A DNA stretch of 32,000 bases from Megasphaera elsdenii DSM 20460 (GCF_003010495.1 NZ_CP027570.1:990001-1022000), one strand, 5' to 3'. Counted from the first letter of the stretch, positions 1,977 through 29,490 are shown. Made by a program: numbers and translations. Notes: generated by a model not told the origin, from the sequence alone.

Positions 1977-2075
1977 GTAGGGGACGTCCTGAAAGGCGTC
2001 CCGCTGTGATATTCGGCCATAGCCTTATTCTGGTATAATGGTAGGCTTTTGCGAGCCACGAACCACGAGCCACTG
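1977..2075 (+). repeat. Conserved intergenic element, copy 1 (REP-like hairpin + TATAAT box + heptad array)
   Basis: GTAG-GGGACGTCC-tgaaa-GGCGTCCC (1977-2002). Then CTGTGATATTCGGCCATAGCCTTATTCTGGTATAATGGTAGGCTTTTGCGA (TATAAT at 2034-2039). Then GAGCCAC GAACCAC GAGCCAC (2053-2073). Aligns closely by eye with 8541-8635 and 13983-14092. Confidence 0.8.
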
Positions 2076-2090
2076 CTTTTCCTCGGACTC

Positions 2091-2369
2091 AGATGCCGCT
2101 ACGCGGCGACAGACTCAAACTAACAACGACGCTTCGGGAAACCCTCAGCGCGCAGCGGGACGCCCTTTGGGCGTCCCCTACGGATGCGGCGTTCCGCGGC
2201 GACAGACTCAAACTGACAACGACGCTTCGGGAAACCCTCAGCGCGTAGCGGGACGCCCTTTGGGCGTCCCCTACGGATGCGGCGTTCCGCGGCGACAGAC
2301 TCAAACTGACAACGACGCTTCGGGAAACCCTCAGCGCGTAGCGGGACGCCCTTTGGGCGTCCCCTACGG
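2091..2369 (+). repeat. 3 x 93-bp near-identical tandem repeat, each unit carrying a long GTAG/CTAC-flanked GC hairpin
   Basis: CGCGGCGACAGACTC recurs at 2102, 2195 and 2288, an exact 93-bp period. Each unit contains (G)TAGC-GGGACGCCC-ttt-GGGCGTCCC-CTAC(GG), a ~14-bp stem. Differences between units are single bases only. Confidence 0.95.
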
Positions 2370-2454
2370 TATCGCATATAGGCGATGGAGCCACGAGTCA
2401 CTGATTCTGTGTTATACTATGGGGTATATAGTTTATCATAAAGGGGGTCTCCAC

Positions 2455-3138
2455 ATGAAGTGTGTTGTGTTGCTCAGTGGCGGCGTCGATTCTACGACGT
2501 GTCTGGCCATGGCTTTGACGAAATATAAAAAAGATGATGTTTTGGCGCTGACGGCTTATTACGGTCAGAAACATGCCAAGGAATTGGAAGCGGCCCGTAA
2601 GGTAGCGGCGCATTACGGGGTGCAACAACAGGAAGTCGATTTATCTCAGGCTTTCTCTTTGAGTGATTGTTCTCTTCTCCAGGGCAGTCATAAGCCAATC
2701 GCCCATGAATCCTATGCCGATCAGCTGGCTAAAAAAGGCGGCGAAGGGACCGTCGATACGTATGTGCCTTTCCGCAATGGCTTATTCTTATCCTTTGCAG
2801 CTGCTGTAGCCGTCAGTGTCGGTGCCGAAGTCATTTATTACGGTGCCCATGCCGATGATGCCGCCGGGCGGGCTTATCCGGATTGCACGCCGGAATTTGA
2901 AACGGCCATGAATACGGCCATTTATGAAGGTTCTGGCCGGACCTGTCATCTGGAAGCGCCGTTATTGTCGTGGAACAAGGCGGGTGTCGTCAAAGAAGGG
3001 CTGCGCCTGGGAGCCCCTTATGAATTGACCTGGAGCTGCTATGAAGGCGGCGATACCCCTTGCGGTGTCTGCGGGACCTGCCGCGACCGGGCGGCTGCTT
3101 TTGCCGCCAATGGCGTCAAGGATCCGGCATTGCCGTGA
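2455..3138 (+). CDS. queC: 7-cyano-7-deazaguanine synthase QueC, 227 aa
   Basis: ATG at 2455 is preceded by AAAGGGGG. N-terminus is MKCVVLLSGGVDSTTCL (PP-loop SGGxDS). C-terminal Zn-Cys cluster is CYEGGDTPCGVCGTCRDR. The ORF-track extension back to 2038 only reads through the repeat array. Confidence 0.93.
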   Translation: MKCVVLLSGGVDSTTCLAMALTKYKKDDVLALTAYYGQKHAKELEAARKVAAHYGVQQQEVDLSQAFSLSDCSLLQGSHKPIAHESYADQLAKKGGEGTVDTYVPFRNGLFLSFAAAVAVSVGAEVIYYGAHADDAAGRAYPDCTPEFETAMNTAIYEGSGRTCHLEAPLLSWNKAGVVKEGLRLGAPYELTWSCYEGGDTPCGVCGTCRDRAAAFAANGVKDPALP

Positions 3139-3166
3139 AAGACTGAAACGGGGAGGCATATTAAAT

Positions 3167-5152: not shown

Positions 5153-5159
5153 AATTTTC

Positions 5160-5187
5160 GTGGCTCGTGGCTCGTGGCTCGTGGTTC
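5160..5187 (+). repeat. Heptad tandem array (GTGGCTC)x3 + GTGGTTC
   Basis: Starts 8 nt after the pepO-like stop (TAG at 5150-5152). Four contiguous 7-mers. Followed by hairpin TTCGCAGG (5185-5192) / CCTGCGAA (5211-5218), with no U-tract. Confidence 0.9.
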
Positions 5188-5266
5188 GCAGGGTGTCCTT
5201 GTTATGGCGGCCTGCGAACGGCGACCTGCGGCCTGCGTTCTCATAAAGTATTTACACAACTAATCC

Positions 5267-5295
5267 TTGCATTATCTTTGGGAATACGGTACAAT
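5267..5295 (+). promoter_or_regulatory. Candidate pyk promoter
   Basis: TTGCAT (5267-5272), 17-nt spacer, TACAAT (5290-5295), about 105 nt upstream of the start codon. Confidence 0.4.
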
Positions 5296-5401
5296 CGCAG
5301 TGAGCAATAGCTGTATATTGCACTAGTGGGACAAAAAATGTACCACCTGGAACAGAAATGTCAATCGTAACGTGTACGTGAGTAGAAAAGGAGAAATCTG
5401 T

Positions 5402-7150
5402 ATGCTGAAAAAAACAAAGATCGTCTGCACCTTAGGCCCCAGTTCCAATACCCCGGAAATTATCGAAAAGATGATTAAAGCCGGCATGAACGTTGCCCGC
5501 TTTAATTTCTCCCATGGTTCTCATGAAGAACATAAACAGCGCATCGACATGGTCCGCGCTGCCTCCCAGAAACTGGGTATCCCTGTGGCACTGCTCCTGG
5601 ACACGAAAGGCCCGGAAATCCGTTTGGGCAAATTTAAGAATGGCTCGATCATGATGGAAGCCGGCAAGGACTTTACCTTGACGGCCCGTGACATCGAAGG
5701 CGACGAAACGATTGCCTCCATGAACTATAAAGAACTGCCGCAGGACGTCAAAGCCGGCGACCACATCCTCTTGTCGGACGGCCTGGTCAACTTGGAAGTT
5801 GTCAGCGTCGACGGCGAAGATATCCATACGAAGATTCTCAACAGCGGCAAGATGAGCGACCGCAAGCGCGTTGCCGTACCGGGCATTGCCATCAACCTGC
5901 CGGCCGTTTCTGAAACCGATGCCGCTGACATCGAATTTGGCTGCCGCATGAATATGGACTGGATTGCCGCTTCTTTCATCCAGCGCGGCAAAGATGTCCT
6001 GACGATCCGCAAGATTTTGGAAAAACACGACAGCCACATGAAGATTATCTCCAAAATCGAATGTCAGGCAGCTGTCAACAATATCGACGATATCATTAAG
6101 ATGAGCGACGGCATCATGGTTGCCCGTGGTGACCTCGGCGTCGAAGTCCCGGCGGAAGAAGTACCGATGCTCCAGAAAGTCCTCATCCATAAATGCCAGG
6201 CTGCGGGCAAACCGGTCATTACGGCGACGCAGATGCTGGAATCGATGTGCAACAACCCGCGTCCGACCCGGGCAGAAACGAGCGACGTTGCTAACGCCAT
6301 CCTCGATGGCACCGATGCCATCATGCTCAGCGGCGAAACGGCTGGTGGCCTCTATCCGGTAGAAGCCGTAGAAACTATGGCCCGCGTCGCAACCTTTACG
6401 GAAAGCAACTTCACGCCGAAGTCCTATGAAGATGTCGACGCCGAATCGACAACGACGACGGAATCCATCGGCAAAGCCGTCGTCAAGATTGCCAAAGACC
6501 TCCACGCTGCGGCTATCATCGCTTCGACCGAACGCGGCGGCACAGCGCAGATGATTTCTAAATTCCGCCCGGCCTGCCCGATTGTGGCCGTATCGCCGCA
6601 CGAAGCCATCGTCCGCCGCTTGCAGCTCAACTGGGGCGTCCAGGCCGTCACGGGCAAAGAAGCGAACGACACCGACGCTGTCGTCGATAATGCTATCTTC
6701 GCAGCCCTCGACAACGACCTCATCAAAGCCGGCGACCTCGTCGTCCTCACGGCCGGTGTCCCCGTTGCCAAAGCCGGTTCGACCAACATGATCCGCGTCC
6801 AGGTCGTCGGTGACGTCCTCCTCCGCGGTACCGGTATCGGCCGTAATTCGGCCATCGGCAAAGTCTGTGTCGCTGAATCGAAAGAAGACCTGGAAAAGAA
6901 CTTCAGCGACGGCTGCATCCTCGTCCTCCGTTCGGCCCGCGCTGATTTCGTCGATTATATGAAACGGGCCAGCGCCATCGTCTCCGAAGAAGTCGGCCTG
7001 ACCAGTGAATCAGCCATCGTCGCCATCACCTTGGGCATCCCGACCGTCGTCGGCGCAGCTCATGCCGTAGACACTCTGGAAAATGGCGAAATCGTCACCG
7101 TAGACGCCAGCCGCGGCACCATCTTCCGCGGCGAAGCCAACGCACGATAA
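5402..7150 (+). CDS. pyk: Pyruvate kinase with a C-terminal PEP-utilizer (PEPut) mobile-domain extension, 582 aa
   Basis: ATG at 5402 after AAAGGAG. MLKKTKIVCTLGPSS, MNVARFNFSHG and MVARGDLGVE are classic PK motifs. The last ~100 aa (…SEEVGLTSESAIVAITLGIPTVVG…) match the PEPut domain found on Bacillus/Geobacillus-type PKs. Confidence 0.95.
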   Translation: MLKKTKIVCTLGPSSNTPEIIEKMIKAGMNVARFNFSHGSHEEHKQRIDMVRAASQKLGIPVALLLDTKGPEIRLGKFKNGSIMMEAGKDFTLTARDIEGDETIASMNYKELPQDVKAGDHILLSDGLVNLEVVSVDGEDIHTKILNSGKMSDRKRVAVPGIAINLPAVSETDAADIEFGCRMNMDWIAASFIQRGKDVLTIRKILEKHDSHMKIISKIECQAAVNNIDDIIKMSDGIMVARGDLGVEVPAEEVPMLQKVLIHKCQAAGKPVITATQMLESMCNNPRPTRAETSDVANAILDGTDAIMLSGETAGGLYPVEAVETMARVATFTESNFTPKSYEDVDAESTTTTESIGKAVVKIAKDLHAAAIIASTERGGTAQMISKFRPACPIVAVSPHEAIVRRLQLNWGVQAVTGKEANDTDAVVDNAIFAALDNDLIKAGDLVVLTAGVPVAKAGSTNMIRVQVVGDVLLRGTGIGRNSAIGKVCVAESKEDLEKNFSDGCILVLRSARADFVDYMKRASAIVSEEVGLTSESAIVAITLGIPTVVGAAHAVDTLENGEIVTVDASRGTIFRGEANAR

Positions 7151-7167
7151 GCATCACCCTGATAGGA

Positions 7168-7199
7168 GGGGCTGTCGCATTAAGCGACAAGCCCCTTTT
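7168..7199 (+). terminator. Intrinsic terminator after pyk
   Basis: GGGGCTGTCGC (7168-7178), loop ATTAA, GCGACAAGCCCC (7184-7195, one bulged A), then TTTT. Confidence 0.8.
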
Positions 7200-7329
7200 G
7201 TGGTTCGTTTGGCGTGGTTCGTTTGCCGAAAATTCTCACAGCTGCAAGAAAAATGATATTTTCATACAGCAGATTGTTAAAAAATTTAAACCTTCACGGC
7301 AAACAAATCACGAACCACGGCAAACCACG
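7200..7329. repeat. 130-bp MITE-like unit: imperfect ~29-bp inverted heptad arms around a 68-bp AT-rich core
   Basis: Left arm is GTGGTTCGTTTGGC GTGGTTCGTTTGCC G (7200-7228; a 14-bp direct repeat). The right arm 7297-7329 reverse-complements to CGTGGTTTGCCGTGGTTCGTGATTTGTTTGCCG. It lies between the convergent pyk and M20 genes. Confidence 0.6.
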
Positions 7330-7331
7330 TG

Positions 7332-7384
7332 AAAAAAGGGATTGTGCATGACGGCAAAAGCCTTCGTGCGACAATCCCTTTTTT
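7332..7384 (-). terminator. Intrinsic (bidirectional-looking) terminator for the M20 peptidase gene
   Basis: AAAAAAGGGATTGT ... ACAATCCCTTTTTT flanks a long loop. It sits immediately 3' of the minus-strand stop (7384-7386). Confidence 0.65.
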
Positions 7385-8528: not shown

Positions 8529-8540
8529 TGGAAAAGACGC

Positions 8541-8635
8541 AGGCCGCCTGGATAAGGCGGCCCGATGTGATGTTCGACCACAGCCTATCCGAGTATAATG
8601 GCAGGCTTTTACGAACCACGAACAACGAGCCACTA
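8541..8635 (+). repeat. Conserved intergenic element, copy 2
   Basis: AGGCCGCC-tggataa-GGCGGCC hairpin (8541-8562). Then CGATGTGATGTTCGACCACAGCCTATCCGAGTATAATGGCAGGCTTTTACGA (TATAAT at 8594-8599). Then GAACCAC GAACAAC GAGCCAC (8613-8633). Collinear with 1977-2075. Confidence 0.8.
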
Positions 8636-8664: not shown

Positions 8665-8759
8665 CGATGTCTTCAGTTTGAGTTTGACGCCGCGCAGCGG
8701 CATCTGAGTCTGAGGCGACCGGCGGGACCGTCAGGTCCCCGATTCGATGAACGATGAAC
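8665..8759 (-). repeat. Single inverted copy of the 93-bp repeat unit, plus a hairpin and a (GATGAAC)x2 heptad pair
   Basis: Reverse complement of 8665-8745 is GGGGACC-tgac-GGTCCC...CCTCAGACTCAGATGCCGCTGCGCGGCGTCAAACTCAAACTGAAGAC. This matches 2081-2128 (CCTCGGACTCAGATGCCGCTACGCGGCGACAGACTCAAACTAACAAC) at roughly 85% by eye. GATGAAC GATGAAC lies at 8746-8759. Confidence 0.7.
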
Positions 8760-9141
8760 GGCTTTTTTACCCATGTACTTGAGTGTCATTATCTTTTAAT
8801 TACAAAAATGACCACTTGCGACAAAAAAACGTCATTTTAGGACAAGTTTGTCTTATCCCCTCGTTTTATATCGTATAATGCAAGTAGATAAGAAACCCAT
8901 ATAACGAATGTATGAAATGTAAAAATGTAAACCTAAAATAGAAAGGGATGAAGTTATTAAAACTGATATTTTTATCAAACATTATTAAAGAACATGTGGA
9001 AGTATAACATTTAGCGAAACAATTTTATATCATATTAATTATATTATAAGTGAGAAAGACAATTGTCTATACAAATAAAAAATAATTAAAGCATTTTTAC
9101 GGTAAAATATTCTGGAGCTGAAAAAAAGGAGGCGAACATTT

Positions 9142-12100
9142 ATGAATAAGATTTACAAGGTAGTATGGAATACAGTTCGCAATTGTTACGTAGTCGGATC
9201 CGAACTGATTAGCTCGAAATCGGGCAGACATAGCGCATCGAATGGCAAGTCTTCGAGTTTGAAAGTTACTTTGACCGTACTAGCGCTCTGCGGGATGACG
9301 GCTTTAGGAAGCGGAGTGGTCCCGGCGTATGCGGCGGATGGCACGGGAGCTGTAACGGCAAAGAATCAATACGTCGCATTGAGGTTCTCTAGTCCTGATG
9401 ATGGCGATTCAAGAGCTGAATACCAGAATGGTCAATGGCATACTACTTTTAATGGAAAAAACTACGATACGGTTGACAGTGGTATGAAGGATAAATATAA
9501 TCAGCCTATTATCTATTGGGTCCGCAACGGCTATTCGCTGACCATAGTCGACGGCCAGCCTTATACGTCCTTGTCGGACAATGGCCGCCGGGCTGATGTC
9601 AGCTGGACAGATGATGCAAATGCCAAACCGTCGGATATCTTAGAAAGCGTTACTTCGACTCATGTCCAAACGAATGTGACGACCAATGTTGGCGAAACGT
9701 TGCAGCAAGTCAATGCTGGAACCTATGCTGGTGTGAGCAATTCTGATGGAACAGAGGTTAACGGCAAATGGAATTACATCGTCAAAGACTCCAGTTGGAA
9801 AGGCGTTGTCGACGCTTCGAATTATCGCAACGGGTATGCTGACTTAGTTTCTAGTGGCAAGCCTAGGGGCTTTGTCAGAACTACGGATGCTGGCTCTAAA
9901 TTAGCTTGGAACGCTACCCTTAGCGCATATACGTATAATGGAAAAGTTGTCGATTATAGCAATATCTATGTCATTGATGGGGAAATCGGTGTCTTCACCA
10001 ACGCTTCGGAATCAGAAGTCTATACAGGAACAGTCTTTGGTAAAAATAATGAAGTCTTGATGACTGTCAAGAAATCTGATGGCAGCTATTACAGCTATTG
10101 GGGCGCTGAAGTCAATGACGCTGGCGCTACGATGGATACCTATCGGGTAGCCGAATACCAGAAAGACCTCAACGTCTTGCGGGACAATGACTTTGCCCTC
10201 TATCATAACGATATTAAGTCCGTAGATATGAGCACGAACGATTCTTCGGCAACCATTTCCCTCATGCGTAATGGTGATGGTACGAGCAATCCTGCTGTCG
10301 ATGGAACGTTGACCATTACTAATGGTGGCGGCACAGGTGGTAAGGACACCTATGTCCGTATTTCCAACACGACGAATGGACAAGAAGTTTCTAAGACCTT
10401 TACGACAGGCTCGAAAGTCAGCGCCATTGGGTCAACTGATGCTACAACAGGACTGACGATTAATGGTGTCGATTACACGATTAAACCGGATGTCAGCTGG
10501 ACTGCCCAGGCTGGCGGTAAGGACGTCAATGCTGTCAATCAGAAAGTCAACTTTGTTGGAAGTGACCATATTACCGTTACCGGAACAGATGGTCAGATTA
10601 AATTTGAAGCTACTGGGTTGGCAGATACGGACCTCACCAATATCACGAACACGGCAGTAACAAAGATTCAAAACATCGCTAAAGGCGAAGATGTCCATAT
10701 CAAAGCCGATACCTATACGGTAGGTAATGATGGTTCCGTTACCATGACCTACGTCGATGGCAATGGCAATACAATTGATGGCACGGCCAAGATTACGGGC
10801 ATCGCCAAGTCGGATCTGTCGAATATCACCAATAAAGGAAATACCGTTATCAAGAATATTGCTAAAAATGCTGTGAAAGTTATTGGTGGGACGAACACGG
10901 CCGTTGAAACTTCGACGACAGATAATGGACCTGTGGAATACAAAGTCAATCTCAATAAAGATGTCAACTTGGGCGATACGATTCAGCTCAATGGCTCCGA
11001 TGGCTCCATCAGTGCTAAATCGGGCGGCGCGAGGTTGTCTTTCAACAACAACGGCTTGACGGTTTCCCAGGCCAAGAATGGCGTGACTAATGAAACGAGA
11101 ATCAATGGAGCTGAGATTACGGTCGACGGTGGTATCGGTAACCAGACAACTATCAAAGGTTCGATGGCTAGTATCGGCAGCGTCCTAGTCAACGGCGGTG
11201 GTGGAACAGCTACGATTAGTGGCCTGACCAATAAAACGACGAAGTACGCGGGTTTTGCAACATCTGGCCGGGCAGCAACGGAAGAACAGTTGAAAGAAGT
11301 CAACAGCAAAGCGACTGCAGCAAAGACGACGGTTACTAACGGCAAGAACATTACTGTCAACGAAGCGAAAGCAGATGATGGCAGCAGCACGTATACCGTA
11401 GGCTTGGCAAAAGATGTCGTTCTTGGCGACAATGCCATTAAGCTCAATGGCTCCGATGGCTCCATCAGTGCTAAATCGGGCGGCGCGAGGTTGTCTTTCA
11501 ACAACAACGGCTTGACGGTTTCCCAGGCTAAGAATGGCTTGACTAATGAAACGAGAATCAATGGAGCTGAGATTACGGTCGACGGCGGTATCGGTAACCA
11601 GACAACGATTAAAGGCTCGACGGCCCGAATTGGTAATGTCTTGGTTAACGGTGGTAGCGGAACGGCTACGATTACTGGCTTGACCAATAAAACGACGGAT
11701 TACACCGGCTTTGCAAACGGCAGTGGCCGGGCCGCAACGGAAGAACAGCTGAAAGAAGTCGACAGCAAAGCGGCAGCCGCAAAGACGACGGTCACTAACG
11801 GCAAGAATATCACTGTCGACGAAGCGAAAGCAGATGATGGCAGCAGCACGTATACCGTAGGCTTGGCAACAGATGTCGTTCTCGGCGACAATGCCATTAA
11901 GCTCAACGGTTCCGATGGTTCCATCAGTGCTAAATCGGGCGGAGCCCAGCTGGCTTTCAACAACAGCGGCTTGACGGTTTCGCAGGCTAAGAATGGCTTG
12001 ACCAATGAAACGAGAATCGATGGAGCTACGATTACAGTCGATGGTGGTACGGGTAACCAGACGATCATCAACGGTTCGACGGCTCGTATCGGCAGTGTCT

Positions 12101-13788
12101 TGGTCAACGGTGGTAGCGGAACGGCTACGATTACTGGCTTGACCAATAAAACGACGGAGTACACCGGTTTTGCAAACGGCAGTGGCCGGGCAGCTACGGA
12201 AGAACAGCTGAAGGAAGTTGCAGGCAAAGCTGGCGAAGCTATCGAAACGGCTGGCAAAGGCTGGAATCTGACGACTAACGGTAAAGAAGCTAGCAAGACC
12301 AACATCGCTCCGGACGGCACGGTAGACTTCTCCAGCAGCAATGACAATCTGATCATCAGCAATGCTGGCGCAAATCTCTCGTTCTCCCTCAGTGATAATC
12401 TCGACCTAACCAAGAATGAAGCTAATAAAGGCAGCGTCAAAGTCGGTAAAAATACGACATTGACAGATGGACTTCTCCAGGTCGGTAACTTGTCCCTGAC
12501 GGCAAATGCTCTCACAATTGACGGTTCGACCTATATCAGTGCCAGTGGTATCAATGCCAATAAACATAAAATCACCAATGTCTTAGCTGGGAAAGATGAT
12601 ATGGATGCAGTCAACGTCGGTCAGCTCAAATCGGCTATCCGCGATTCGCAAGTTTCCATCAAGGCTGGTGATGGCATCAGTGTCGCTAAGACGGGTAACC
12701 AGTACACAATCAATGTTAATATTGAAGGCGTTACCAATAACCAAGGCAAAGTAACGGTTTCGACAGGTGACAGCACTTCGACAGAAAGTGGTTCCGAATC
12801 CGGTTCGTCGGGCGCTAAGAAGTTCAAAGTCATGGACCTCATGTATCGGGCAGAATCTAATGAAGTTGCTCCAGAAACGACAACAGATACCGGTAAACCT
12901 ATGAAAATTGAAAGTATTCCGGAAGATATCAAGCTTGAAGCTGATGATAACCAGGCTGCCAGTGTCGTAAATGGTGAAACTATTAAGATTGCTGGTGATG
13001 GTACGAATATCTCGACGAAAGCTAACGTTACTGGAGCAGGCAGCATGGATACCATATCCGTTTCCCTGAAACCGGATATTCAAGTTGATAGTGTTACTAT
13101 CAACAATGGTGGACCGACCATTAATAATACTGGTATCGACATGAATGGTAAGAGCATCACCAATGTTGAAAATATTACCGTCAACAATGGTCCGACCATC
13201 AATAGCAGCGGTATCGACATGAACAGCCAGAAGATCATCAACCTGGCTGAAGGAGATATCTCCGAAACGTCGACAGATGCCGTCAATGGCGGTCAGCTCT
13301 ACAACACGAACCAGGCCGTCATTGCCAATGCGGAAAACATCAACAGCCTGAGCCATTCGCTCAACAAGCTGGACAGCCGCATCAACCGCGTCGGTGCTGG
13401 TGCAGCCGCGCTGGCAGCCCTCCACCCGCTCGACTTTGACCCGGACAACAAGTGGGACTTCGCAGCTGGTTACGGCAACTATGCTGGCGCTAATGCCGTC
13501 GCTATCGGTACCTACTATCGTCCGAACGAAAACACCATGTTCAGCATCGGTGGCAGCTTCGGCGGCGGTGAAAATATGATCAACGCCGGTGTCAGCTTCA
13601 AACTCGGCAGCGGTGGCAGCGGTATCACGACGTCCAAGACGGTCATGGCCAAGAAGATTAAAGAACAAGATGAACTCCTGAAAGCACAGGATGCTAAGAT
13701 GAAAGAACAAGACGAAAAGATTGCTAAACTGGAAGCTCTCGTAGCCCAGCAAGGCGAAATGATTCAGCAGGCACTTGGCAAGAAATAG
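9142..13788 (+). CDS. Trimeric autotransporter adhesin (type Vc, YadA-like), 1548 aa, with ESPR signal peptide and post-anchor coiled coil
   Basis: AAGGAGG RBS. N-terminus MNKIYKVVWNTVRNCYVVGSELISSK is an ESPR-type extended signal, followed by ...ALGSGVVPAYA|ADG. DAVNVGQLK and DAVNGGQLYN are Hep_Hag/neck-type motifs. The C-terminal four-strand anchor runs AGAAALAALHPLDF...GVSFKLG, followed by a ~60-aa K/E/Q-rich heptad tail. Confidence 0.93.
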   Translation: MNKIYKVVWNTVRNCYVVGSELISSKSGRHSASNGKSSSLKVTLTVLALCGMTALGSGVVPAYAADGTGAVTAKNQYVALRFSSPDDGDSRAEYQNGQWHTTFNGKNYDTVDSGMKDKYNQPIIYWVRNGYSLTIVDGQPYTSLSDNGRRADVSWTDDANAKPSDILESVTSTHVQTNVTTNVGETLQQVNAGTYAGVSNSDGTEVNGKWNYIVKDSSWKGVVDASNYRNGYADLVSSGKPRGFVRTTDAGSKLAWNATLSAYTYNGKVVDYSNIYVIDGEIGVFTNASESEVYTGTVFGKNNEVLMTVKKSDGSYYSYWGAEVNDAGATMDTYRVAEYQKDLNVLRDNDFALYHNDIKSVDMSTNDSSATISLMRNGDGTSNPAVDGTLTITNGGGTGGKDTYVRISNTTNGQEVSKTFTTGSKVSAIGSTDATTGLTINGVDYTIKPDVSWTAQAGGKDVNAVNQKVNFVGSDHITVTGTDGQIKFEATGLADTDLTNITNTAVTKIQNIAKGEDVHIKADTYTVGNDGSVTMTYVDGNGNTIDGTAKITGIAKSDLSNITNKGNTVIKNIAKNAVKVIGGTNTAVETSTTDNGPVEYKVNLNKDVNLGDTIQLNGSDGSISAKSGGARLSFNNNGLTVSQAKNGVTNETRINGAEITVDGGIGNQTTIKGSMASIGSVLVNGGGGTATISGLTNKTTKYAGFATSGRAATEEQLKEVNSKATAAKTTVTNGKNITVNEAKADDGSSTYTVGLAKDVVLGDNAIKLNGSDGSISAKSGGARLSFNNNGLTVSQAKNGLTNETRINGAEITVDGGIGNQTTIKGSTARIGNVLVNGGSGTATITGLTNKTTDYTGFANGSGRAATEEQLKEVDSKAAAAKTTVTNGKNITVDEAKADDGSSTYTVGLATDVVLGDNAIKLNGSDGSISAKSGGAQLAFNNSGLTVSQAKNGLTNETRIDGATITVDGGTGNQTIINGSTARIGSVLVNGGSGTATITGLTNKTTEYTGFANGSGRAATEEQLKEVAGKAGEAIETAGKGWNLTTNGKEASKTNIAPDGTVDFSSSNDNLIISNAGANLSFSLSDNLDLTKNEANKGSVKVGKNTTLTDGLLQVGNLSLTANALTIDGSTYISASGINANKHKITNVLAGKDDMDAVNVGQLKSAIRDSQVSIKAGDGISVAKTGNQYTINVNIEGVTNNQGKVTVSTGDSTSTESGSESGSSGAKKFKVMDLMYRAESNEVAPETTTDTGKPMKIESIPEDIKLEADDNQAASVVNGETIKIAGDGTNISTKANVTGAGSMDTISVSLKPDIQVDSVTINNGGPTINNTGIDMNGKSITNVENITVNNGPTINSSGIDMNSQKIINLAEGDISETSTDAVNGGQLYNTNQAVIANAENINSLSHSLNKLDSRINRVGAGAAALAALHPLDFDPDNKWDFAAGYGNYAGANAVAIGTYYRPNENTMFSIGGSFGGGENMINAGVSFKLGSGGSGITTSKTVMAKKIKEQDELLKAQDAKMKEQDEKIAKLEALVAQQGEMIQQALGKK
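10945..12225 (+). repeat. Three tandem ~456-459-bp (152-153 aa) near-identical repeats inside the TAA stalk
   Basis: CTCAA(T/C)GG(C/T)TCCGATGG recurs at 10987, 11443 and 11902. The repeated peptide is LNGSDGSISAKSGGARLSFNNNGLTVSQAKNG.TNETRI.GA.ITVDGG.GNQT...LVNGG.GTATI.GLTNKT...GRAATEEQLKEV. Confidence 0.95.
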
Positions 13789-13840
13789 TGCCATCCAGAA
13801 GGCTTCGCGTGAAGGTTCCGGCCATCATGCGGGGCCTTTT

Positions 13841-13875
13841 GATGTTTGATGTTTGATGCGTGATGTTTGATGTGA
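13841..13875 (+). repeat. Heptad tandem array GATGTTT GATGTTT GATGCGT GATGTTT GATGTGA
   Basis: Five contiguous 7-mers about 50 nt after the TAA stop codon. Confidence 0.9.
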
Positions 13876-13938
13876 TAATGTGGATTTTGGGAGGCAGGCC
13901 GCAAAAAAACACGGCCAACGGCCTTGTGCGTAGTATGC

Positions 13939-14092
13939 GTAGGGGCCGACCTTTAACCTCTCAGACCGCCTTTGGCGGCCAGCTCCCCTATAAAGGGAGC
14001 CTTGTGAGTCCCGTTGTGAGATTTCATTACAGCCCATTCGAGTATAATGGCAGGCTTTTACGAGCCACGAATCACGAACCACGAGCCACTAA
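13939..14092 (+). repeat. Conserved intergenic element, copy 3 (with extra GTAG-headed GC hairpins upstream)
   Basis: GTAGGGGCCGACC at 13939. CCGCC-ttt-GGCGG and CTCCC-ctataaa-GGGAG hairpins. Then GTCCCGTTGTGAGATTTCATTACAGCCCATTCGAGTATAATGGCAGGCTTTTACGA (TATAAT at 14043-14048). Then GAGCCAC GAATCAC GAACCAC GAGCCAC (14062-14089). Confidence 0.8.
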
Positions 14093-15794: not shown

Positions 15795-15835
15795 GAGGCC
15801 GTAGTTTATAGTTTGTAGAAGAGAGATTTAAACTC

Positions 15836-15872
15836 AAAAGAGGCTGTCCAATGCGACAGCCTCTTTTTTTTT
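15836..15872 (+). terminator. Intrinsic terminator after hcp
   Basis: AAAA, then GAGGCTGTC (15840-15848), loop CAATGC, GACAGCCTC (15855-15863), then a T9 run. Confidence 0.85.
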
Positions 15873-15889: not shown

Positions 15890-16072
15890 GTAGGGGACGT
15901 CCTGTCAAGGCGTCCAGCCTCTGCTGTCCGTTTTGGCGACCGTCTTGCGCCTTCCGTTGGTCGGCACCCGATGGGTCAAAAAGGCTTAGGACGGCCCCTA
16001 CGGAGGCCCCGATTGGGGCGCTTTAGCGCCCTAACTACTTGCGGAATTGCCTATTCTACGGTAATATAAACG
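15890..16072 (+). repeat. Diverged or mosaic copy of the REP-like element cluster, ending in a TATAAT-box-like segment before ppiB
   Basis: GTAGGGGACGTCC-tgtcaa-GGCGTCC (15890-15915) is nearly identical to 1977-2002. GGACGGCCCCTAC (15990-16001) and the GGGGCG-cttta-GCGCCC hairpin follow. GCCTATTCTACGGTAATATAAACG (~16049-16072) resembles GCCTTATTCTGGTATAATGG of copy 1. Confidence 0.6.
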
Positions 16073-19482: not shown

Positions 19483-19605
19483 GGAAAGGGCTGACGCCCT
19501 TTCCAGTGGTTCGTGGTTCGTAAGCGGGCCGATAACCCTGTGGCGCCCCTACTTTTAAATTTAAAACCATCCACTAACCCCTAGCCACTAACAACTAACC
19601 ACTAA
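19483..19605 (+). repeat. Intergenic mosaic: 9-bp-stem hairpin, (GTGGTTC)x2, a CCCCTAC head, and five CCACTAA-type heptads
   Basis: GGAAAGGGC-tgac-GCCCTTTCC (19483-19504, no U-tract). GTGGTTC GTGGTTC (19507-19520). GGCGCCCCTAC (to 19552). CCACTAA CCCCTAG CCACTAA CAACTAA CCACTAA (19571-19605). Confidence 0.85.
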
Positions 19606-19641
19606 AAAGACGCTGTCGCATTATGCGACAGCGTTTTTTTA
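19605..19641. terminator. Bidirectional intrinsic terminator shared by the SGNH operon (+) and the SorC regulator gene (-)
   Basis: AAAAAG, then ACGCTGTCGCA (19610-19620), loop TTA, TGCGACAGCGT (19624-19634), then T7. The T-run overlaps the minus-strand stop codon (19639-19641). Confidence 0.85.
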
Positions 19642-20580
19642 CACCTCCTCCAGCAAGCGCTTGGCTGTGAACTGGTCGGTGATGAGGACGTTGGCGTAGC
19701 CGCCTTTCAGGGCGGCGCGGATGCTGGCGATTTTGCCTTCGCCGCCGGAGAGGAGGATGCTGTATTCTTTGTTGCGCAGGTCATCCAGGGCGATGCCGAC
19801 GGTGCGGTCATTCAATTCCTGGCTGGAGATGTTGCCGTCTTTGTCGAAGAAGCGGGAGCAGATGTCGCCGACGGCGTGGCTCTTGAGGTAGGCTTTTTCT
19901 TGGGTATCGGCATAGCCCAGGCGGAAGAATAGGGCGTTGTCGCGGACTGTACCGACGCTGAAGATGGCGATGTTGGCATTGCGCCCCAGTTCCAGGACGC
20001 GCTTGATGTGGCGGTCGCGGTAGACCATTTCCTTGACTTCTTTGGAGTCGAAGAGGACCGGCAGGGGCAGGTACTGGGCGATAGTTTCGTAGTTCTTGGC
20101 GAATTTTTCCAGGATTTCATTGGCGTAGGTTTCGCTCGTTGAAAGGGTGATGCCCCCTTCGAGCTGGACGATTTGGGCGCCCTTCAGGGGGTGGGGGATG
20201 AGCTGATGGGACAGGCTGTGGAGGGTTGTGCCCCAGCCGACGCCGATGATGTCGCCGTCCTGGATGATTTCATTGATATAGGCTGCGCCGCGCTGGCCGA
20301 TATATTTCTTGACTTCTTCTTCATCTTCGATGGGTGCGTTGGCGATGCAGACCTGGCGCAGCCCGTAGGCCGAGGCCACTTTTTGGGCCAGCTGGCCCTG
20401 GTCTTCGATGGGGTCGAAGATTTCGATGCGCACGAAACCCATGTCCTTGGCGTACTGCAAGAGCCGGGAAACGGACGGTCGGGACAGCTGCAATTCCTTG
20501 GCGATATCGGCTTGGCTAAAGCCTGACTGATAATATAATTTGGCTGCGCTGATGGCTAGTTTATTCTTATTATGTTGCAT
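19639..20580 (-). CDS. SorC/DeoR(Bs)/CggR-family sugar-phosphate-binding transcriptional regulator, 313 aa
   Basis: N-terminal HTH KLYYQSGFSQADIAKELQLSRPSVSRLLQYAKDMGFVRIEI, followed by a SorC-type effector domain (…GVGWGTTL…, …DICSRFFD..G…). Divergent from glpK. Confidence 0.88.
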   Translation of the reverse strand: MQHNKNKLAISAAKLYYQSGFSQADIAKELQLSRPSVSRLLQYAKDMGFVRIEIFDPIEDQGQLAQKVASAYGLRQVCIANAPIEDEEEVKKYIGQRGAAYINEIIQDGDIIGVGWGTTLHSLSHQLIPHPLKGAQIVQLEGGITLSTSETYANEILEKFAKNYETIAQYLPLPVLFDSKEVKEMVYRDRHIKRVLELGRNANIAIFSVGTVRDNALFFRLGYADTQEKAYLKSHAVGDICSRFFDKDGNISSQELNDRTVGIALDDLRNKEYSILLSGGEGKIASIRAALKGGYANVLITDQFTAKRLLEEV

Positions 20581-20837: not shown

Positions 20838-22415
<1,578 letters not shown>

Positions 22416-23165: not shown

Positions 23166-23184
23166 TCTATTTATATATGGTTTT

Positions 23185-26160: not shown

Positions 26161-26161
26161 C

Positions 26162-26533: not shown

Positions 26534-26566
26534 TAGGTACCAATATATTCCCTCTTACATATACCG

Positions 26567-26598
26567 AAAAGGAGGCTGCCTTATAGCAGCCTCCTTTT
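26567..26598 (+). terminator. Intrinsic terminator after the DUF1667 gene
   Basis: AAAA, then GGAGGCTGC (26571-26579), loop CTTATA, GCAGCCTCC (26586-26594), then TTTT. Confidence 0.85.
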
Positions 26599-26602
26599 CG
26601 AG

Positions 26603-26756
26603 TTTGTAGTATAATGTTTGCAGTACGAAGTAGTATTTGCTTGATTTATCGCTTCGTTGCTAAAATAATCAGCACTATATCGAATGGGCTATGGTAAAAT
26701 CTCACAGTGGGCCGCCCTCTGGGACGGCCCCTACGCAGCTAACTGCTAACTGCTAA
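26603..26756 (-). repeat. Inverted, partly degenerate copy of the conserved intergenic element, flanked by heptad arrays
   Basis: Reverse complement of 26682-26737 is GCGTAGGGGCCGTCC-cagag-GGCGGCCC-ACTGTGAGATTTTACCATAGCCCATTCG, which matches copies 1 and 3. The TATAAT-box and heptad part (26603-26681) is decayed to GT-phased 7-mers (GTTTGTA GTATAAT GTTTGCA GTACGAA GTAGTAT). CAGCTAA CTGCTAA CTGCTAA lies at 26736-26756. Confidence 0.65.
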
Positions 26757-26792: not shown

Positions 26793-26816
26793 GGTATTGG
26801 TTGGAAAATGGTTTGT

Positions 26817-27761: not shown

Positions 27762-27905
27762 GAGAATCTCTCCTTTTCCTATGATTCATCCCCCGATGAA
27801 TGCAAAATATATTGAAAATATAGTAAGGTATACCAATTGGGTATAGATTTTATGTACACCTATACTGGATTTTTCATTTCCGTATAGGGGTGACAACGAA
27901 TTTGG

Positions 27906-28604
27906 TTATTTCAAAGGCCTCATTTTGCCGATGCAGCGTTCATCATGCTGCTGGTCCATCATTTCCACGCGGCGCTGCAGGATGGCTACCTGATGCTGCA
28001 AGGCAATAATCTGGTCTTCGATGGGATCGGGCAGGCGGTTGTGATTGAGGTCGACGTCGCGTTCGCTGTGGCTGGCTTTGATGCGTTTGCCCTGCTGGAC
28101 GACGACGCGGCCCGGGATGCCGACGACTGTCGAGTACGGCGGCACTTCTTTGAGGACGACGGAACCGGCGCCGATTTTTGCGCCTTCGCCGACGGTAAAG
28201 GAACCGAGGACTTTGGCACCGCAGGCGACGACGACGTAGTCGCCGATGGTCGGATGGCGTTTGCCTTTTTCCTTACCCGTCCCGCCGAGGGTCACGCCCT
28301 GATAGAGGGAAACGTTGTTGCCGATGACCGTCGTTTCTCCGATGACGATGCCCATGCCATGGTCGATGAACAGGCCTTCGCCAATCTGGGCGCCGGGATG
28401 GATCTCGATGCCCGTGAAGAAGCGGGAAATGGTGGAAATGATGCGGGCCGTGACAAACCACTGATGCTTGTAGAAGAAGTGGGCCAGGCGATGGGCCCAG
28501 ATGGCATGAAGGCCGGAATAGCAAAGCAAGACTTCCAGCGTATTCTTAGCAGCTGGATCGCGGTCCTTGATGACGCGAATGTCGTTGCGAAGTGATTTGA
28601 ACAT
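27906..28604 (-). CDS. cysE: Serine O-acetyltransferase, 232 aa
   Basis: [27 protein letters not shown] and [27 protein letters not shown], with hexapeptide repeats. AGGAGGG RBS. Confidence 0.93.
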
Positions 28605-28635
28605 GGCGTAGCGCCCTCCTGTGATGTGAAAAAAG

Positions 28636-28884
28636 TAAATAAAAAAGACCTGCCGTCATACAGAGACGGTGGTCCGTGGTTCCACTCTGATTGCAGTCCT
28701 TAGACTGCCACTCAATACCCGTAACGGCGGCAACCGGGATGACCTACTCGCGTTCAATCATCCTGCTCCCAAAGGCATTCCATCACATTCAACTTCGATA
28801 GGGGCTTTCAGCCGATGGCCCTTACTCTCTGTGCCGTTATCCTGTGTGTACTTGTTTTGGTCATTGCATTTTTGTTTTCGTGTT
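28636..28884 (-). promoter_or_regulatory. T-box riboswitch leader (cysteine-specific) controlling cysE(-cysK)
   Basis: Minus strand, 5' to 3': AGAGAG/GTAA stem-I elements (~28825-28835). Tandem GAAUGU/GAAUGC specifier candidates (codons at 28785-28787 and 28775-28777). T-box sequence AATCAGAGTGGAACCACGG (28693-28675; consensus AAnnnGGGTGGnACCGCG). Terminator GACCACCGTC...GACGGCAGGTC plus T6 (28674-28641), which overlaps the T-box as expected for the antiterminator/terminator switch. Confidence 0.75.
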
Positions 28885-28890
28885 GAACAC

Positions 28891-28919
28891 ATGATACCCC
28901 TTCATAGGACGTTTGTCAA
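28891..28919 (-). promoter_or_regulatory. Promoter of the T-box/cysE transcript
   Basis: The minus strand reads TTGACA (28919-28914), 17-nt spacer, TATCAT (28896-28891). Confidence 0.55.
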
Positions 28920-29490
28920 TAGAAAGATCCTAAAAAGATGACAAAATTGGTATCTTATTCAAAATGGCCGTTAGAATCGCTTTCTTTATATATCTATATA
29001 AGGGCATTTGCAGTTTGTAGTTTGTAGCAGTGGGAGTTTTGTTGGTTGTCGATACATAAAGACTCATCATTTTTGATTAAATTTGTCTGCATACAATATC
29101 CATGTTTGGTAGACATGAACTGTATTCGCTCCAATCAATGGTATAATATAAAGCAAAATGAGTTTAATATGATTTAATGTAATTTTAAAAATCTAAAAAT
29201 ATCATTACAAAAACACATGCTTTAGTGTAGTTGAATAAAGTATATGGCGGTAATAAGCCGTTTTTATAAAAATTTTATCTATAAAAAGCATAGAGTACTA
29301 AAAGAATACCATATTAGTAATGAATGGATATATAACTAAAAAGCATAGGTACATATTCAAGGTTTCTCATTTTGTATTACTCATTTTTCTATACTTATTG
29401 CACTTTACGCATGAAATGGTATACTTATGGTAAATACTTTACTTCATAGTATTCGTTGTAGTTGTAATTTATAAGTAAAGAGGTGTGAAA

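What the first reader, a model, noticed from the sequence alone, without database searches (positions are those of the whole stretch)
2053..29030. Tandem 7-bp micro-arrays of differing sequence in almost every intergenic spacer
I count 15 short tandem arrays with a strict 7-nt period, and every one lies between genes:
- 2053-2073: GAGCCAC GAACCAC GAGCCAC
- 2388-2401
- 5160-5187: (GTGGCTC)x3 + GTGGTTC
- 7200-7228 and its inverse 7297-7329
- 8613-8633
- 8746-8759: (GATGAAC)x2
- 13841-13875: (GATGTTT)-type x5
- 14062-14089
- 15801-15818: GTAGTTT ATAGTTT GTAG
- 19507-19520
- 19571-19605: (CCACTAA)-type x5
- 26603-26637
- 26736-26756: (CTGCTAA)x3
- 29010-29030: GCAGTTT GTAGTTT GTAGCAG

Read on one strand, they share a loose consensus G-N-D-G-Y-T-N (GTGGTTC, GTGGTTA, GCAGTTA, GTAGTTT, GATGTTT). 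The period and phase are conserved, but the sequence is not. Arrays sit next to stop codons, terminators or REP-like hairpins.

This is not explained by coding, by ordinary terminators or by a single repeat family. It suggests a period-7 recognition system. One precedent is HutP-type proteins, which read UAG-N4-UAG-N4-UAG, and that is literally what 15801-15818 spells. Alternatively, a slippage or insertion process may be tied to the REP-like elements.
Basis: seen in the sequence. Interest (0 to 1): 0.72.

Follow-up and report, generated by a model that had tools for sequence, protein, structure and literature searches.

The report
Seven-base repeat arrays beside REP elements
The short 7-base tandem repeats between genes are real and far beyond chance, but they are an ordinary, fast-changing kind of bacterial simple-sequence repeat that here sits on the edges of a family of small palindromic (REP) mobile elements, not a new regulatory code.

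Summary
The window is Megasphaera elsdenii DSM 20460 (identical to HE576794.1).

**Observation:** it holds. Period-7 arrays occur only in intergenic DNA: 9 at a strict threshold against 0.06 expected, none in 26.5 kb of coding sequence, and 0-1 for the other periods from 4 to 13. Twelve of the 15 listed arrays are solid. Three are period-14 or degenerate. Nine of 15 spacers carry arrays, not "almost every" one.

**What they are:** heptanucleotide simple-sequence repeats.
- Long pure arrays differ between strains by whole units. One locus has 10 alleles of 4-10 units. Short or impure arrays are stable.
- They lie at the borders of a mosaic of GTAG-tagged REP hairpins, conserved linkers and terminators.
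- In other strains the same spacer holds a REP-associated tyrosine transposase (RAYT) gene.
- In four loci of other Megasphaera species, long arrays run in register into the REP's GTAG tag.

**Beyond Megasphaera:** period-7 arrays of unrelated sequence are common in many phyla. (GTGGYTC)n is no more frequent than permuted heptamers, and RAYT neighbourhoods elsewhere lack arrays. So the period is general and the sequence is incidental.

**Verdict:** the HutP-like reading is not supported. This is a new member of a known kind.

The parts
2053..2073 (-). Heptad array GAGCCAC GAACCAC GAGCCAC (reverse complement GTGGYTC). It is the right arm of 'module A': REP hairpin, linker with TATAAT, then heptads.
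   Evidence: lag-7 identity 12/14. Module A recurs at 8561-8633 and 14010-14082 (family D5).
2388..2401 (-). Two-unit heptad GAGCCAC GAGTCAC closing the REP cluster, just upstream of the queC promoter region.
   Evidence: 6/7. It flanks the 93-bp tandem units seen.
1977..2002 (+). GTAG-tagged REP hairpin GTAGGGGACGTCC tgaaa GGCGTCCC (REP-a type).
2102..2369 (+). 93-bp unit repeated 2.9 times. Each copy carries a REP-b palindrome GTAGCGGGACGCCCtttGGGCGTCCCCTAC, giving a BIME-like tandem cluster. Strains L002, L005 and L010 carry a RAYT gene in this same spacer.
   Evidence: score 522; family D3.
5160..5187 (+). (GTGGCTC)3 GTGGTTC directly after the pepO stop codon. It runs in register into a degenerate REP (GCAGGGTGTCC..GGCGGCC, 5188-5215). 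Hypervariable between strains.
   Evidence: Ten alleles of 4-10 whole units. Folds with 5207-5237 (z = -3.4).
5207..5237 (-). Degenerate heptad array GCGGCCT GCGAACG GCGACCT GCGGCCT GCGTTC, the inverted partner of 5160-5187.
   Evidence: (period 7, score 34).
7200..7228 (+). GTGGTTC GTTTGGC GTGGTTC GTTTGCC (true period 14), placed after the pyk terminator. Left arm of a long inverted repeat.
   Evidence: lag-7 identity only 10/22; 7196-7333 folds as a hairpin, z = -5.0.
7297..7329 (-). Inverted partner of 7200-7228, next to the terminator of the convergent M20 peptidase gene.
   Evidence: Strain L141 has an unrelated filling at this spacer: CCACTAR heptads, a REP and a terminator.
8540..8564 (+). 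REP-a remnant GGCCGCCTggataaGGCGGCCC. Its GTAG tag has been lost by deletion and is intact in L001 and L008.
   Evidence: alignment.
8613..8633 (-). Heptad array GAACCAC GAACAAC GAGCCAC (module A arm).
   Evidence: 11/14. L008 has one extra unit.
8746..8759 (+). (GATGAAC)2. There are 4 units in L001 and L008.
13841..13875 (+). GATGTTT-type array of 5 units after the adhesin gene's terminal hairpin. L001 has 4 units.
   Evidence: 22/28.
13939..14020 (+). GTAG-tagged REP-a whose loop is interrupted by a nested element of about 50 bp.
   Evidence: The nested element recurs in L020, L064 and L084.
14062..14089 (-). GAGCCAC GAATCAC GAACCAC GAGCCAC (module A arm), upstream of hcp. Strains carry 3, 4 or 5 units.
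   Evidence: 17/21.
15801..15818 (+). GTAGTTT ATAGTTT GTAG, lying between the hcp stop codon and its terminator (15836-15867).
   Evidence: (9/11). Copy number is stable in 10 strains, with one SNP.
15890..15915 (+). GTAG-tagged REP hairpin. A second REP half lies at 15985-16007 on the minus strand. Some strains have a 113-bp module inserted nearby.
19507..19520 (+). (GTGGTTC)2 after a terminator-like hairpin, followed by a REP remnant ending in ..GGCGCCCCTAC (19521-19552).
   Evidence: 7/7.
19571..19605 (-). CCACTAA-type array of 5 units (reverse complement GTGGTTA), abutting the sorC terminator (19610-19634). The heptads-plus-terminator module recurs in other Megasphaera species.
   Evidence: (22/28).
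26603..26637 (+). Degenerate array with a period of 7 or 14, after the terminator at 26565-26600. Weak.
   Evidence: (13/28).
26709..26734 (-). GTAG-tagged REP-a hairpin GTAGGGGCCGTCCcagaGGGCGGCCC, with inverted module-A linker at 26680-26711.
   Evidence: (I7).
26736..26756 (-). CAGCTAA (CTGCTAA)2 (reverse complement GCAGTTA), lying between the cysK terminator and the GTAG of the REP.
   Evidence: (13/14). Copy number is stable in 9 assemblies.
29010..29030 (+). GCAGTTT GTAGTTT GTAGCAG. No REP is nearby.
   Evidence: 10/14. Two sequence alleles with the same length.

Best explanation
The micro-arrays are heptanucleotide simple-sequence repeats, micro/minisatellite-like DNA. They grow and shrink by whole 7-bp units through slipped-strand mispairing, or through unequal exchange between units.

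In Megasphaera elsdenii they are not free-standing. They form the variable arms and junctions of a BIME-like intergenic mosaic. That mosaic is built from GTAG-tagged REP hairpins, conserved linkers and terminator hairpins, and it belongs to a REP-associated tyrosine transposase (RAYT) system. Arrays are carried into spacers together with REP modules and then drift locally in copy number and unit sequence.

Shown here:
- The arrays are restricted to intergenic DNA.
- They change between strains in whole units.
- They sit at module borders of the mosaic.
- In several Megasphaera loci they are in register with the REP tag.
- The same modules recur in other species.

Inferred:
- Slippage is the generating process.
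- Adjacent hairpins favour slippage by stalling replication.
- The 7-nt quantum reflects a general property of bacterial replication or repair. This is the idea attributed to Mrazek and co-workers (2007) in PMC4679880 and PMC4692102.

The arrays probably have no dedicated sequence-specific function. Where paired in inverted orientation they lengthen the hairpin arms of the element.
For: 1. **Period-7 excess confined to intergenic DNA.**
2. **Whole-unit polymorphism.**
   - The pepO-pyk spacer is 249, 256, 263, 270 or 291 bp long.
   - It has 10 alleles of 4-10 units. The homogeneous blocks (GTGGCCA)n, (GTGGCTA)n, (GTGGCTC)n and (GTGGTTC)n vary independently.
   - The arrays at 8746, 13841 and 14062 also vary.
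3. **Purity and length dependence typical of slippage.** Short or impure arrays (7200, 15801, 19507, 19571, 26736, 29010) keep their copy number in 9-10 assemblies.
4. **REP/RAYT context.**
   - GTAG-tagged hairpins are all intergenic in the window. There are 83 unique ones in the Megasphaera sequences examined.
   - A 149-aa Y1 transposase lies between the permease gene and queC/hcp in L002, L005 and L010. It is flanked on both sides by REP-linker-heptad units.
   - Its best family match is NCBIfam 'REP-associated tyrosine transposase', E = 1.3e-20, 73.8 bits. Its PDB match is TnpA-REP 4ER8. Homologues are named RayT.
5. **Array-to-tag register.** Arrays run in register into the tag..GTGGTTC GTGGCTC|GTAGGGG.., at L064:6708, L084:5883, L120:315(-) and L120:2125. 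The window's array at 5160-5187 runs the same way into a degenerate tag (GCAGGGT at 5188).
6. **Module recurrence.** Module A and the heptad-plus-terminator module recur in non-orthologous loci of other Megasphaera species.
7. **Spacer co-occurrence.** By my reading of the sequence, 8 of the 9 array-bearing spacers also hold a REP or a REP-derived piece, and the 6 spacers without arrays hold none. One of the eight, 7151-7383, rests on a 13-nt linker match only.
8. **The period is general, the sequence is not.**
   - In 840 kb from 120 loci of many phyla, there are 115 non-seed period-7 arrays against 2-43 for other periods.
   - Their units are heterogeneous.
   - Permuted heptamers are about as common as GTGGYTC in viral contigs: 15 and 17 stretches against 26.
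9. **Literature.** Heptanucleotide repeats are the most abundant long simple-sequence repeats in many prokaryotes, are intergenic, vary in length, and often occur as convergent pairs (PMC4679880, PMC4692102).
Against: - Slippage itself was not observed. Only its footprint was.
- Nothing here explains why 7 rather than 6 or 8.
- The window's arrays keep a G-N-D-G-Y-T core while other positions vary. In most spacers they point inward as convergent pairs. Pure neutral slippage does not predict either pattern, though common descent from one element family could.
- One array (29010) has no REP nearby.
- One array (15801) lies inside a 3' UTR.
- The sample outside this 40-kb region was chosen by the presence of a heptad array. 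Genome-wide frequencies in M. elsdenii are therefore extrapolated.
Confidence: 0.72

Rival explanations
1. RAYT-made tag arrays. Each unit carries a GTAG-like tetranucleotide (GTGG, GTAG, GCAG or GATG), and in GTGGCTC also a C|T cleavage dinucleotide. Under this reading the arrays are substrates or by-products of cut-and-rejoin by the Y1 transposase next to the REP foot, and the transposase rather than the replisome sets the 7-nt step.
For: - Arrays run in register into the REP tag in at least 4 independent Megasphaera loci, and into a degenerate tag in the window.
- Intermediate units GTAGTTC and GTAGCTC occur next to the tag.
- A RAYT gene is flanked by heptad-bearing units.
- E. coli TnpA-REP needs GTAG, cleaves ssDNA at C|T at variable distance, and performs strand transfer that can amplify BIMEs (PMC3333891).
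Against: - About 60 kb around RAYT homologues in Paludicola, Actinobacillus, an unnamed low-GC (0.37-0.38) taxon found in metagenome assemblies, and a 51%-identical homologue on an unnamed metagenome contig holds no period-7 array. The last of these does have dense GTAG-REPs.
- Heptad arrays in other phyla are not next to GTAG hairpins: 1 of 21 hairpins.
- Most Megasphaera REPs are preceded by linkers, not heptads.
- GTGGTTC units and many others lack a CT dinucleotide.
- The window strain varies and keeps arrays although no RAYT gene is in the window.
Confidence: 0.1
2. A period-7 nucleic-acid-binding protein reads the arrays in RNA or DNA and controls termination, mRNA stability or translation. 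Candidates are a HutP-like, cold-shock-domain or other factor that contacts about 7 nt per subunit.
For: - 15801-15818 spells UAG-N4-UAG-N4-UAG just 5' of a terminator.
- The window's arrays share a G-N-D-G-Y-T core.
- MacGregor proposed S1, Csp or CsrA binding for TAACTGA heptads (PMC4679880).
Against: - Arrays lie before and after terminators, on both strands relative to transcription, and inside REP clusters.
- Units at one locus change between strains with no conservation of the variable three bases, and copy number ranges from 4 to 10.
- Whole spacers are swapped for unrelated fillings.
- There is no Rfam match.
- The HutP site architecture is absent: no two triplet sets, no 5' leader, no hut genes.
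Confidence: 0.05
3. Contingency (phase-variation) loci. Copy number of arrays in promoter regions tunes expression of the neighbouring genes, as the 7-bp repeats do upstream of Haemophilus hmw1A.
For: - The arrays at 2388-2401 and 14062-14089 lie just upstream of the queC and hcp promoter regions. The latter has 3-5 units among strains.
- A variable YadA-type adhesin is adjacent to two array-bearing spacers.
- 7-bp repeat phase variation is documented in H. influenzae (title of PMC8262952, listed; not read here).
Against: - The most variable array (5160) and most others lie downstream of genes or beyond terminators.
- The flanking genes are mostly housekeeping: pyk, hcp, queC, cysK.
- There is no consistent distance to the -35/-10 elements.
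Confidence: 0.06
4. Recombination or repair signals. Arrays such as GTGGCTC/GTGGCTA contain GCTNGTGG, one base from E. coli Chi. They face outward-moving exonucleases from the fragile palindromic core, so they could protect the flanking genes.
For: - Arrays are arranged as convergent pairs around hairpin cores in most spacers.
- The spacers are rearrangement junctions between strains.
- The resemblance to Chi is from my own knowledge and was not tested.
Against: - Unit sequences are too diverse (GATGTTT, GTAGTTT, GCAGTTA, GATGAAC).
- Chi for Megasphaera is unknown.
- Permuted heptamers are equally common elsewhere.
Confidence: 0.03

Closest known systems
Heptanucleotide long simple-sequence repeats of prokaryotes (Mrazek, Guo and Shah 2007, as summarised in PMC4679880 and PMC4692102)
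   Same: - 7-nt unit in head-to-tail arrays.
- Strong intergenic bias.
- Many different unit sequences within one genome.
- Length variation between relatives.
- A slippage origin has been proposed.
   Different: Not reported for Megasphaera or Negativicutes in the papers I could search. Here the arrays are physically tied to REP modules.
Xanthomonas GGGAATC and Nostoc GGGGAYT intergenic heptamer repeats (Rehm et al. 2015, PMC4692102)
   Same: - Intergenic and close to stop codons.
- 2 to more than 20 units, with extensive length and sequence variation between relatives.
- Frequent convergent inverted pairs.
   Different: Those units are G-tracts able to form quadruplexes, with a preference for 4 units. 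The authors found no link to mobile elements. The Megasphaera units have no G-tracts and abut REPs.
REP/BIME/REPIN elements with their RAYT (Ton-Hoang 2012, PMC3333891; Bertels and Rainey 2011, PMC3116915; Di Nocera 2013, PMC3733652)
   Same: - GTAG tag 5' of an imperfect palindrome.
- Extragenic and high in copy number.
- Mosaic clusters with linkers, tandemly amplified units (93 bp x 2.9), and copy number that varies between strains.
- A single Y1 transposase gene flanked by the repeats.
   Different: - Heptad arrays as linker or arm modules are not described for BIMEs or REPINs.
- The host is a Negativicute.
- The transposase scores just under NCBIfam's RAYT cut-off (73.8 vs 80 bits).
TAACTGA repeats of Beggiatoaceae, cyanobacteria and Bacteroidetes (PMC4679880) and cyanobacterial STRR heptamers (Calothrix, cited in PMC4692102)
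   Same: Short intergenic heptamer arrays of unknown function that are widespread within a genome.
   Different: In those cases a single dominant unit lies mostly just upstream of start codons. Here there are many units, mostly downstream of genes.
HutP binding sites (UAG-N4)3 x 2 in the Bacillus hut leader (from my own knowledge)
   Same: A 7-nt spacing of UAG in one array (15801-15818).
   Different: - One triplet set only.
- A 3' UTR location.
- No hut genes nearby.
- The other arrays lack UAG.

Membership tests
Heptanucleotide simple-sequence repeats (prokaryotic LSSR class) | Head-to-tail copies of a 7-nt unit, more frequent or longer than chance | tested here: met
   9 arrays against 0.06 expected; other periods from 4 to 13 give 0-1.
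Heptanucleotide simple-sequence repeats (prokaryotic LSSR class) | Bias to non-coding DNA | tested here: met
   9 of 9 arrays fall in the 5.5 kb of intergenic DNA and 0 in the 26.5 kb of coding DNA.
Heptanucleotide simple-sequence repeats (prokaryotic LSSR class) | Copy-number polymorphism in whole units between strains | tested here: met
   spacer lengths step by 7 bp, and one locus has 10 alleles of 4-10 units.
Heptanucleotide simple-sequence repeats (prokaryotic LSSR class) | Generated by replication slippage | not testable with these tools
   Only the footprint is seen: the dependence on purity and length.
REP / BIME elements | GTAG tetranucleotide 5' of an imperfect GC-rich palindrome of 20-40 nt | tested here: met
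   An example is GTAGGGGACGTCCtgaaaGGCGTCCC at 1977-2002. There are 83 unique tagged hairpins in the Megasphaera sequences.
REP / BIME elements | Extragenic, many copies, clustered with linkers and tandemly amplified | tested here: met
   tagged GTAGGGG/GTAGCGG-type hairpins are found only in spacers, and there is a 93-bp x 2.9 cluster.
REP / BIME elements | Cognate RAYT (Y1 HUH transposase) flanked by the repeats (REPtron) | tested here: inconclusive
   - Present in strains L002, L005 and L010.
- Matches NCBIfam NF047646 with E = 1.3e-20, but at 73.8 bits against a cut-off of 80. Matches PDB 4ER8 with E = 1.3e-4.
- No RAYT gene lies in this window. The rest of the DSM 20460 genome could not be searched.
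REP / BIME elements | The heptad arrays themselves are REP sequences | tested here: not met
   The arrays are not palindromes (13836-13880 has no fold). They also occur without REPs at 29010 and in other phyla.
HutP-type antitermination site | Two sets of three UAG spaced by 4 nt, in a 5' leader overlapping a terminator, with a hutP gene | tested here: not met
   There is one set only, at 15801-15818, in the hcp 3' end. The other arrays have no UAG periodicity. Whether a hutP gene exists elsewhere in the genome was not tested.
Phase-variable contingency locus (SSR in a promoter or ORF) | A repeat between or within promoter elements or the reading frame, with expression dependent on copy number | not tested
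   The position is compatible only for 2388-2401 and 14062-14089. No expression data are available.
Known RNA families (Rfam 15) | A match to a curated covariance model | tested here: not met
   the only hit in the window is the T-box leader at 28659-28873.

The most novel reading that the evidence does not exclude
The heptad arrays are made and remodelled by the REP-associated Y1 transposase. Each unit is a degenerate copy of the REP's GTAG tag plus three bases. Repeated cleave-and-rejoin next to the hairpin foot adds or removes 7-nt units.

If this is right, at least part of the long-unexplained excess of heptanucleotide repeats in REP-rich bacteria (Xanthomonas, Nostoc, Megasphaera) is a transposase footprint rather than polymerase slippage.
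Probability: 0.08. Interest if true: 0.7.

Novelty: new member of a known kind. Interest (0 to 1): 0.33.

Why it matters
The finding matters in three ways.

- **Annotation.** It shows that M. elsdenii spacers are filled by a REP/RAYT mosaic whose borders are hypervariable 7-bp repeats. These should not be read as regulatory sites. They are ready-made strain-typing (VNTR) markers for a gut and rumen species of probiotic interest.
- **The open question of period 7.** Why 7 nt is the favoured repeat quantum in many bacteria has been open since 2007. Megasphaera offers a compact case for testing slippage against transposase action. It has hundreds of assemblies, arrays with ordered variant blocks, and a defined neighbour (the GTAG-REP and its RAYT).
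- **Range of REP/RAYT systems.** None of the papers I searched describes one in Negativicutes, so this appears to extend their known range.

Tried and rejected
1. **A known RNA family at the arrays.** The Rfam gathering scan found only a T-box.
2. **A small-RNA gene driven by the TATAAT in module A.** The hexamer decays to TATGAT or TATGGT in other copies and strains.
3. **A heptamer conserved across phyla.** But permuted heptamers are about as frequent in viral contigs. Distal arrays in the same loci have unrelated units. So the unit is not special.
4. **A general link between heptads and GTAG-REPs.** GTAG is not enriched at hairpins near arrays outside Megasphaera.
5. **A general link between heptads and RAYT.** There are no period-7 arrays around six RAYT-homologue loci, and no RAYT in the 120 heptad loci.
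6. **Orthologous spacers in other species.** The pyruvate-kinase homologue search returned only M. elsdenii variants at 99% identity or more. I used these for allele counting instead.
7. **Paired arrays always forming hairpins.** This holds for 7196-7333 and 5156-5240 but not for 19503-19608.
8. **A Chi-like reading (GCTNGTGG).** I considered it from memory and set it aside because the units are too diverse.

Full report
**Source and gene map.** The window is identical to Megasphaera elsdenii DSM 20460, HE576794.1. Locus L003, fetched through the Hcp protein, matches window 4223-25794 base for base. Pfam calls on the same genes in related assemblies give this order:
- amino-acid permease, QueC, M13 peptidase, pyruvate kinase, M20 peptidase (minus strand);
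- a 1548-aa YadA-type adhesin, hybrid-cluster protein (hcp), PPIase, GIY-YIG, M48 peptidase, GDSL lipase;
- a SorC regulator (minus strand) and the glycerol genes; cysK and cysE (minus strand) follow (Pfam calls on them).

The cysE-cysK pair sits behind a T-box leader.

- Tandem Repeats Finer lists eleven period-7 rows.
- A lag-identity scan finds 9 period-7 arrays at a strict threshold. All lie in the 5.5 kb of intergenic DNA and none in the 26.5 kb of coding DNA. Each other period from 4 to 13 gives 0-1. Markov simulations of the intergenic DNA give 0.06.
- Twelve of the 15 listed arrays have lag-7 identity of 71% or more.
- 7200-7228 and 7297-7329 are really period 14, and 26603-26637 is degenerate.
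- Nine of 15 spacers of at least 100 bp carry arrays, so "almost every spacer" is too strong.

**Anatomy.** The arrays are embedded in a mosaic of repeated intergenic modules.
- *Module A.* It recurs at 1977-2073, 8540-8633 and 13939-14089, and inverted at 26640-26734. It consists of a GC-rich palindrome preceded by GTAG (GTAGGGGNCGTCC..GGCGGCCC), a conserved linker (gctgtgagatt...tataatggcaggctttt), and then 3-5 heptads ACGARCC.
- *REP-b.* A second palindrome, GTAGCGGGACGCCCtttGGGCGTCCCCTAC, sits in a 93-bp unit repeated 2.9 times at 2102-2369.
- *GTAG tag.* A GTAG next to an imperfect palindrome is the hallmark of REP elements (PMC3333891, PMC3733652). My hairpin search finds the GTAGGGG/GTAGCGG-type tagged hairpins only in spacers.
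- *Orientation.* In most spacers the outermost arrays, read as G-N-D-G-Y-T-N, point inward as a convergent pair around the REP/linker core (5153, 7151, 13789, 19482, 26534). Two of these pairs extend a long hairpin: 7196-7333 with z = -5.0 and 5156-5240 with z = -3.4. A third pair does not.
- *Co-occurrence.* By my reading, 8 of the 9 array-bearing spacers contain a REP or REP-derived piece, although 7151-7383 rests only on a 13-nt linker match. The 6 spacers without arrays contain none.

**The transposase.** In three other M. elsdenii assemblies (L002, L005, L010), the spacer holding the 93-bp cluster in this window instead contains a 149-aa gene. REP-linker-heptad units flank it on both sides.
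- Its best family match is NCBIfam "REP-associated tyrosine transposase" (E = 1.3e-20, 73.8 bits, cut-off 80).
- It matches Pfam Y1_Tnp, and the only PDB hit is E. coli TnpA-REP, 4ER8.
- It carries an HUH motif (MPNHVHLVV) and the YEHVVRN tyrosine.
- Homologues at 40-47% identity are named RayT by their sources.
- No copy lies in this window.

**Strain comparison.** Twenty-odd assemblies with identical Hcp, Pyk or CysK proteins were compared.
- The pepO-pyk spacer comes in lengths of 249, 256, 263, 270 and 291 bp.
- Its array has ten alleles of 4-10 whole units. Blocks of GTGGCCA, GTGGCTA, GTGGCTC and GTGGTTC vary independently.
- The arrays at 8746, 13841 and 14062 also change by whole units. 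One strain has four GCAGNNC units where the window has one.
- Short or impure arrays (7200/7297, 15801, 19507/19571, 26736, 29010) keep their copy number and show only point changes.
- Modules of 113-230 bp are present or absent between strains, with ends at heptads or at CTAC.
- The pyk-M20 spacer has two unrelated fillings, both with heptads.
- This dependence on length and purity is the usual signature of slipped-strand mispairing.

**Other Megasphaera species.** A scan of one genome per species for (GTGGYTC)3 returned loci from Megasphaera sp. WILCCON 0056, M. intestinihominis and others.
- A recurrent layout there is: terminator hairpin, TTTTTA, a long array (up to 24 units), then a GTAG-REP.
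- The array is in exact register with the tag..GTGGTTC GTGGCTC|GTAGGGGCCGTC.., at L064:6708, L084:5883, L120:315(-) and L120:2125.
- Different loci share the same order of variant blocks. Module A and the heptad-plus-terminator module of 19554-19642 recur in non-orthologous places.
- So the arrays travel with the element. Even so, most of the 83 tagged hairpins are preceded by linkers, not heptads.

**Beyond Megasphaera.** My own arithmetic gives about two matches by chance.
- In these 840 kb, period-7 arrays that do not overlap the seed number 115, against 2-43 for other periods.
- Several different heptads often abut, and convergent pairs are common.
- Units far from the seed are heterogeneous. 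They do not fit G-N-D-G-Y-T-N beyond background, 0.15 against 0.10.
- Two permuted heptamers are about as frequent as GTGGYTC in viral contigs, 15 and 17 stretches against 26.
- GTAG hairpins are not enriched near arrays outside Megasphaera.
- About 60 kb around RAYT homologues in other taxa has no period-7 array.
- The period is therefore a general property and the sequence is incidental. The REP link is specific to this lineage.

**Literature.**
- According to PMC4679880 and PMC4692102, Mrazek and co-workers (2007) found heptanucleotide repeats to be the most abundant long simple-sequence repeats in many prokaryotes. They attributed this to polymerase slippage over a contact of about 7 nt.
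- Xanthomonas GGGAATC and Nostoc GGGGAYT repeats are intergenic, lie near stop codons, vary in length, and often form convergent pairs (PMC4692102).
- TAACTGA repeats fill the spacers of Beggiatoaceae (PMC4679880).
- E. coli TnpA-REP needs GTAG, cuts ssDNA at C|T, and can amplify BIMEs by strand transfer (PMC3333891).
- RAYT groups reach Clostridia (PMC5581495).
- I found no paper linking REPs with heptads, and none on REPs in Megasphaera.

**Verdict.** The arrays are heptanucleotide simple-sequence repeats that ride on, and vary at the borders of, a REP/RAYT mosaic.
- The HutP-type reading fails its defining features.
- A transposase origin for the 7-nt step remains possible but is disfavoured by the negative controls.
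- This is a new member of a known kind, of modest interest.

Noticed in passing
window 2102-2369; L002 3160-3609, L005 1966-2415, L010 9047-9496: A 93-bp REP-bearing unit is repeated 2.9 times between the permease gene and queC. In three other strains the same spacer holds a 149-aa RAYT-like Y1 transposase gene, which is absent from this window.
   Followed up: yes
window 9142-13788 (internal repeat 10981-12230): A YadA-type trimeric autotransporter adhesin carries a 459-bp x 2.7 internal repeat. Among strains with identical Hcp, the gene encodes 2322, 1548, 1434 or 507 aa, or is missing.
   Followed up: no
window 28659-28873 (-): A T-box leader (Rfam RF00230, 110.5 bits) lies upstream of cysE-cysK.
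   Followed up: no
L131-L150 (pyk loci); window 5153-5401 and 7151-7383: The identical pyruvate kinase protein lies in two gene contexts among assemblies: glxK-pyk-lactamase_B and pepO-pyk-M20. Hybrids also exist. The array-bearing spacers on either side of pyk are the junctions where the two contexts differ.
   Followed up: partly
window 1923-1939, 19613-19631 (imperfect copies near 7172 and 15843); L084, L120, L127: Rho-independent terminators share a core CTGTCNC..GNGACAG (0 expected by chance). The heptad-plus-terminator segment 19554-19642 recurs in other Megasphaera species, so terminators may themselves be repeat modules.
   Followed up: partly
window 13952-14003; L020, L064, L084: An element of about 50 bp (..ctctcagaccgcctttggcggccagctcccctataaagggagcc..) is nested in the loop of a REP hairpin. 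It recurs in other species' loci.
   Followed up: no
L152-L155, position 6001-6561: RAYT homologues (43-45% identical) sit between hsdS and hsdR of type I restriction-modification operons, in Actinobacillus vicugnae and in an unnamed low-GC taxon.
   Followed up: no
L015, L017, L021, L014, L080: In distant phyla, including a Methanomicrobiaceae MAG, several different heptad arrays abut one another in a single spacer. An example is (GAGCCAC)8 (GAGCTTC)4 ... (GCCCGCA)7.
   Followed up: partly
window 8760-9140 and 29040-29480: Two long AT-rich stretches (GC about 0.3-0.4) lie upstream of the adhesin gene and after the 29010 array. They contrast with the roughly 0.53 GC of the rest of the window.
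   Followed up: no
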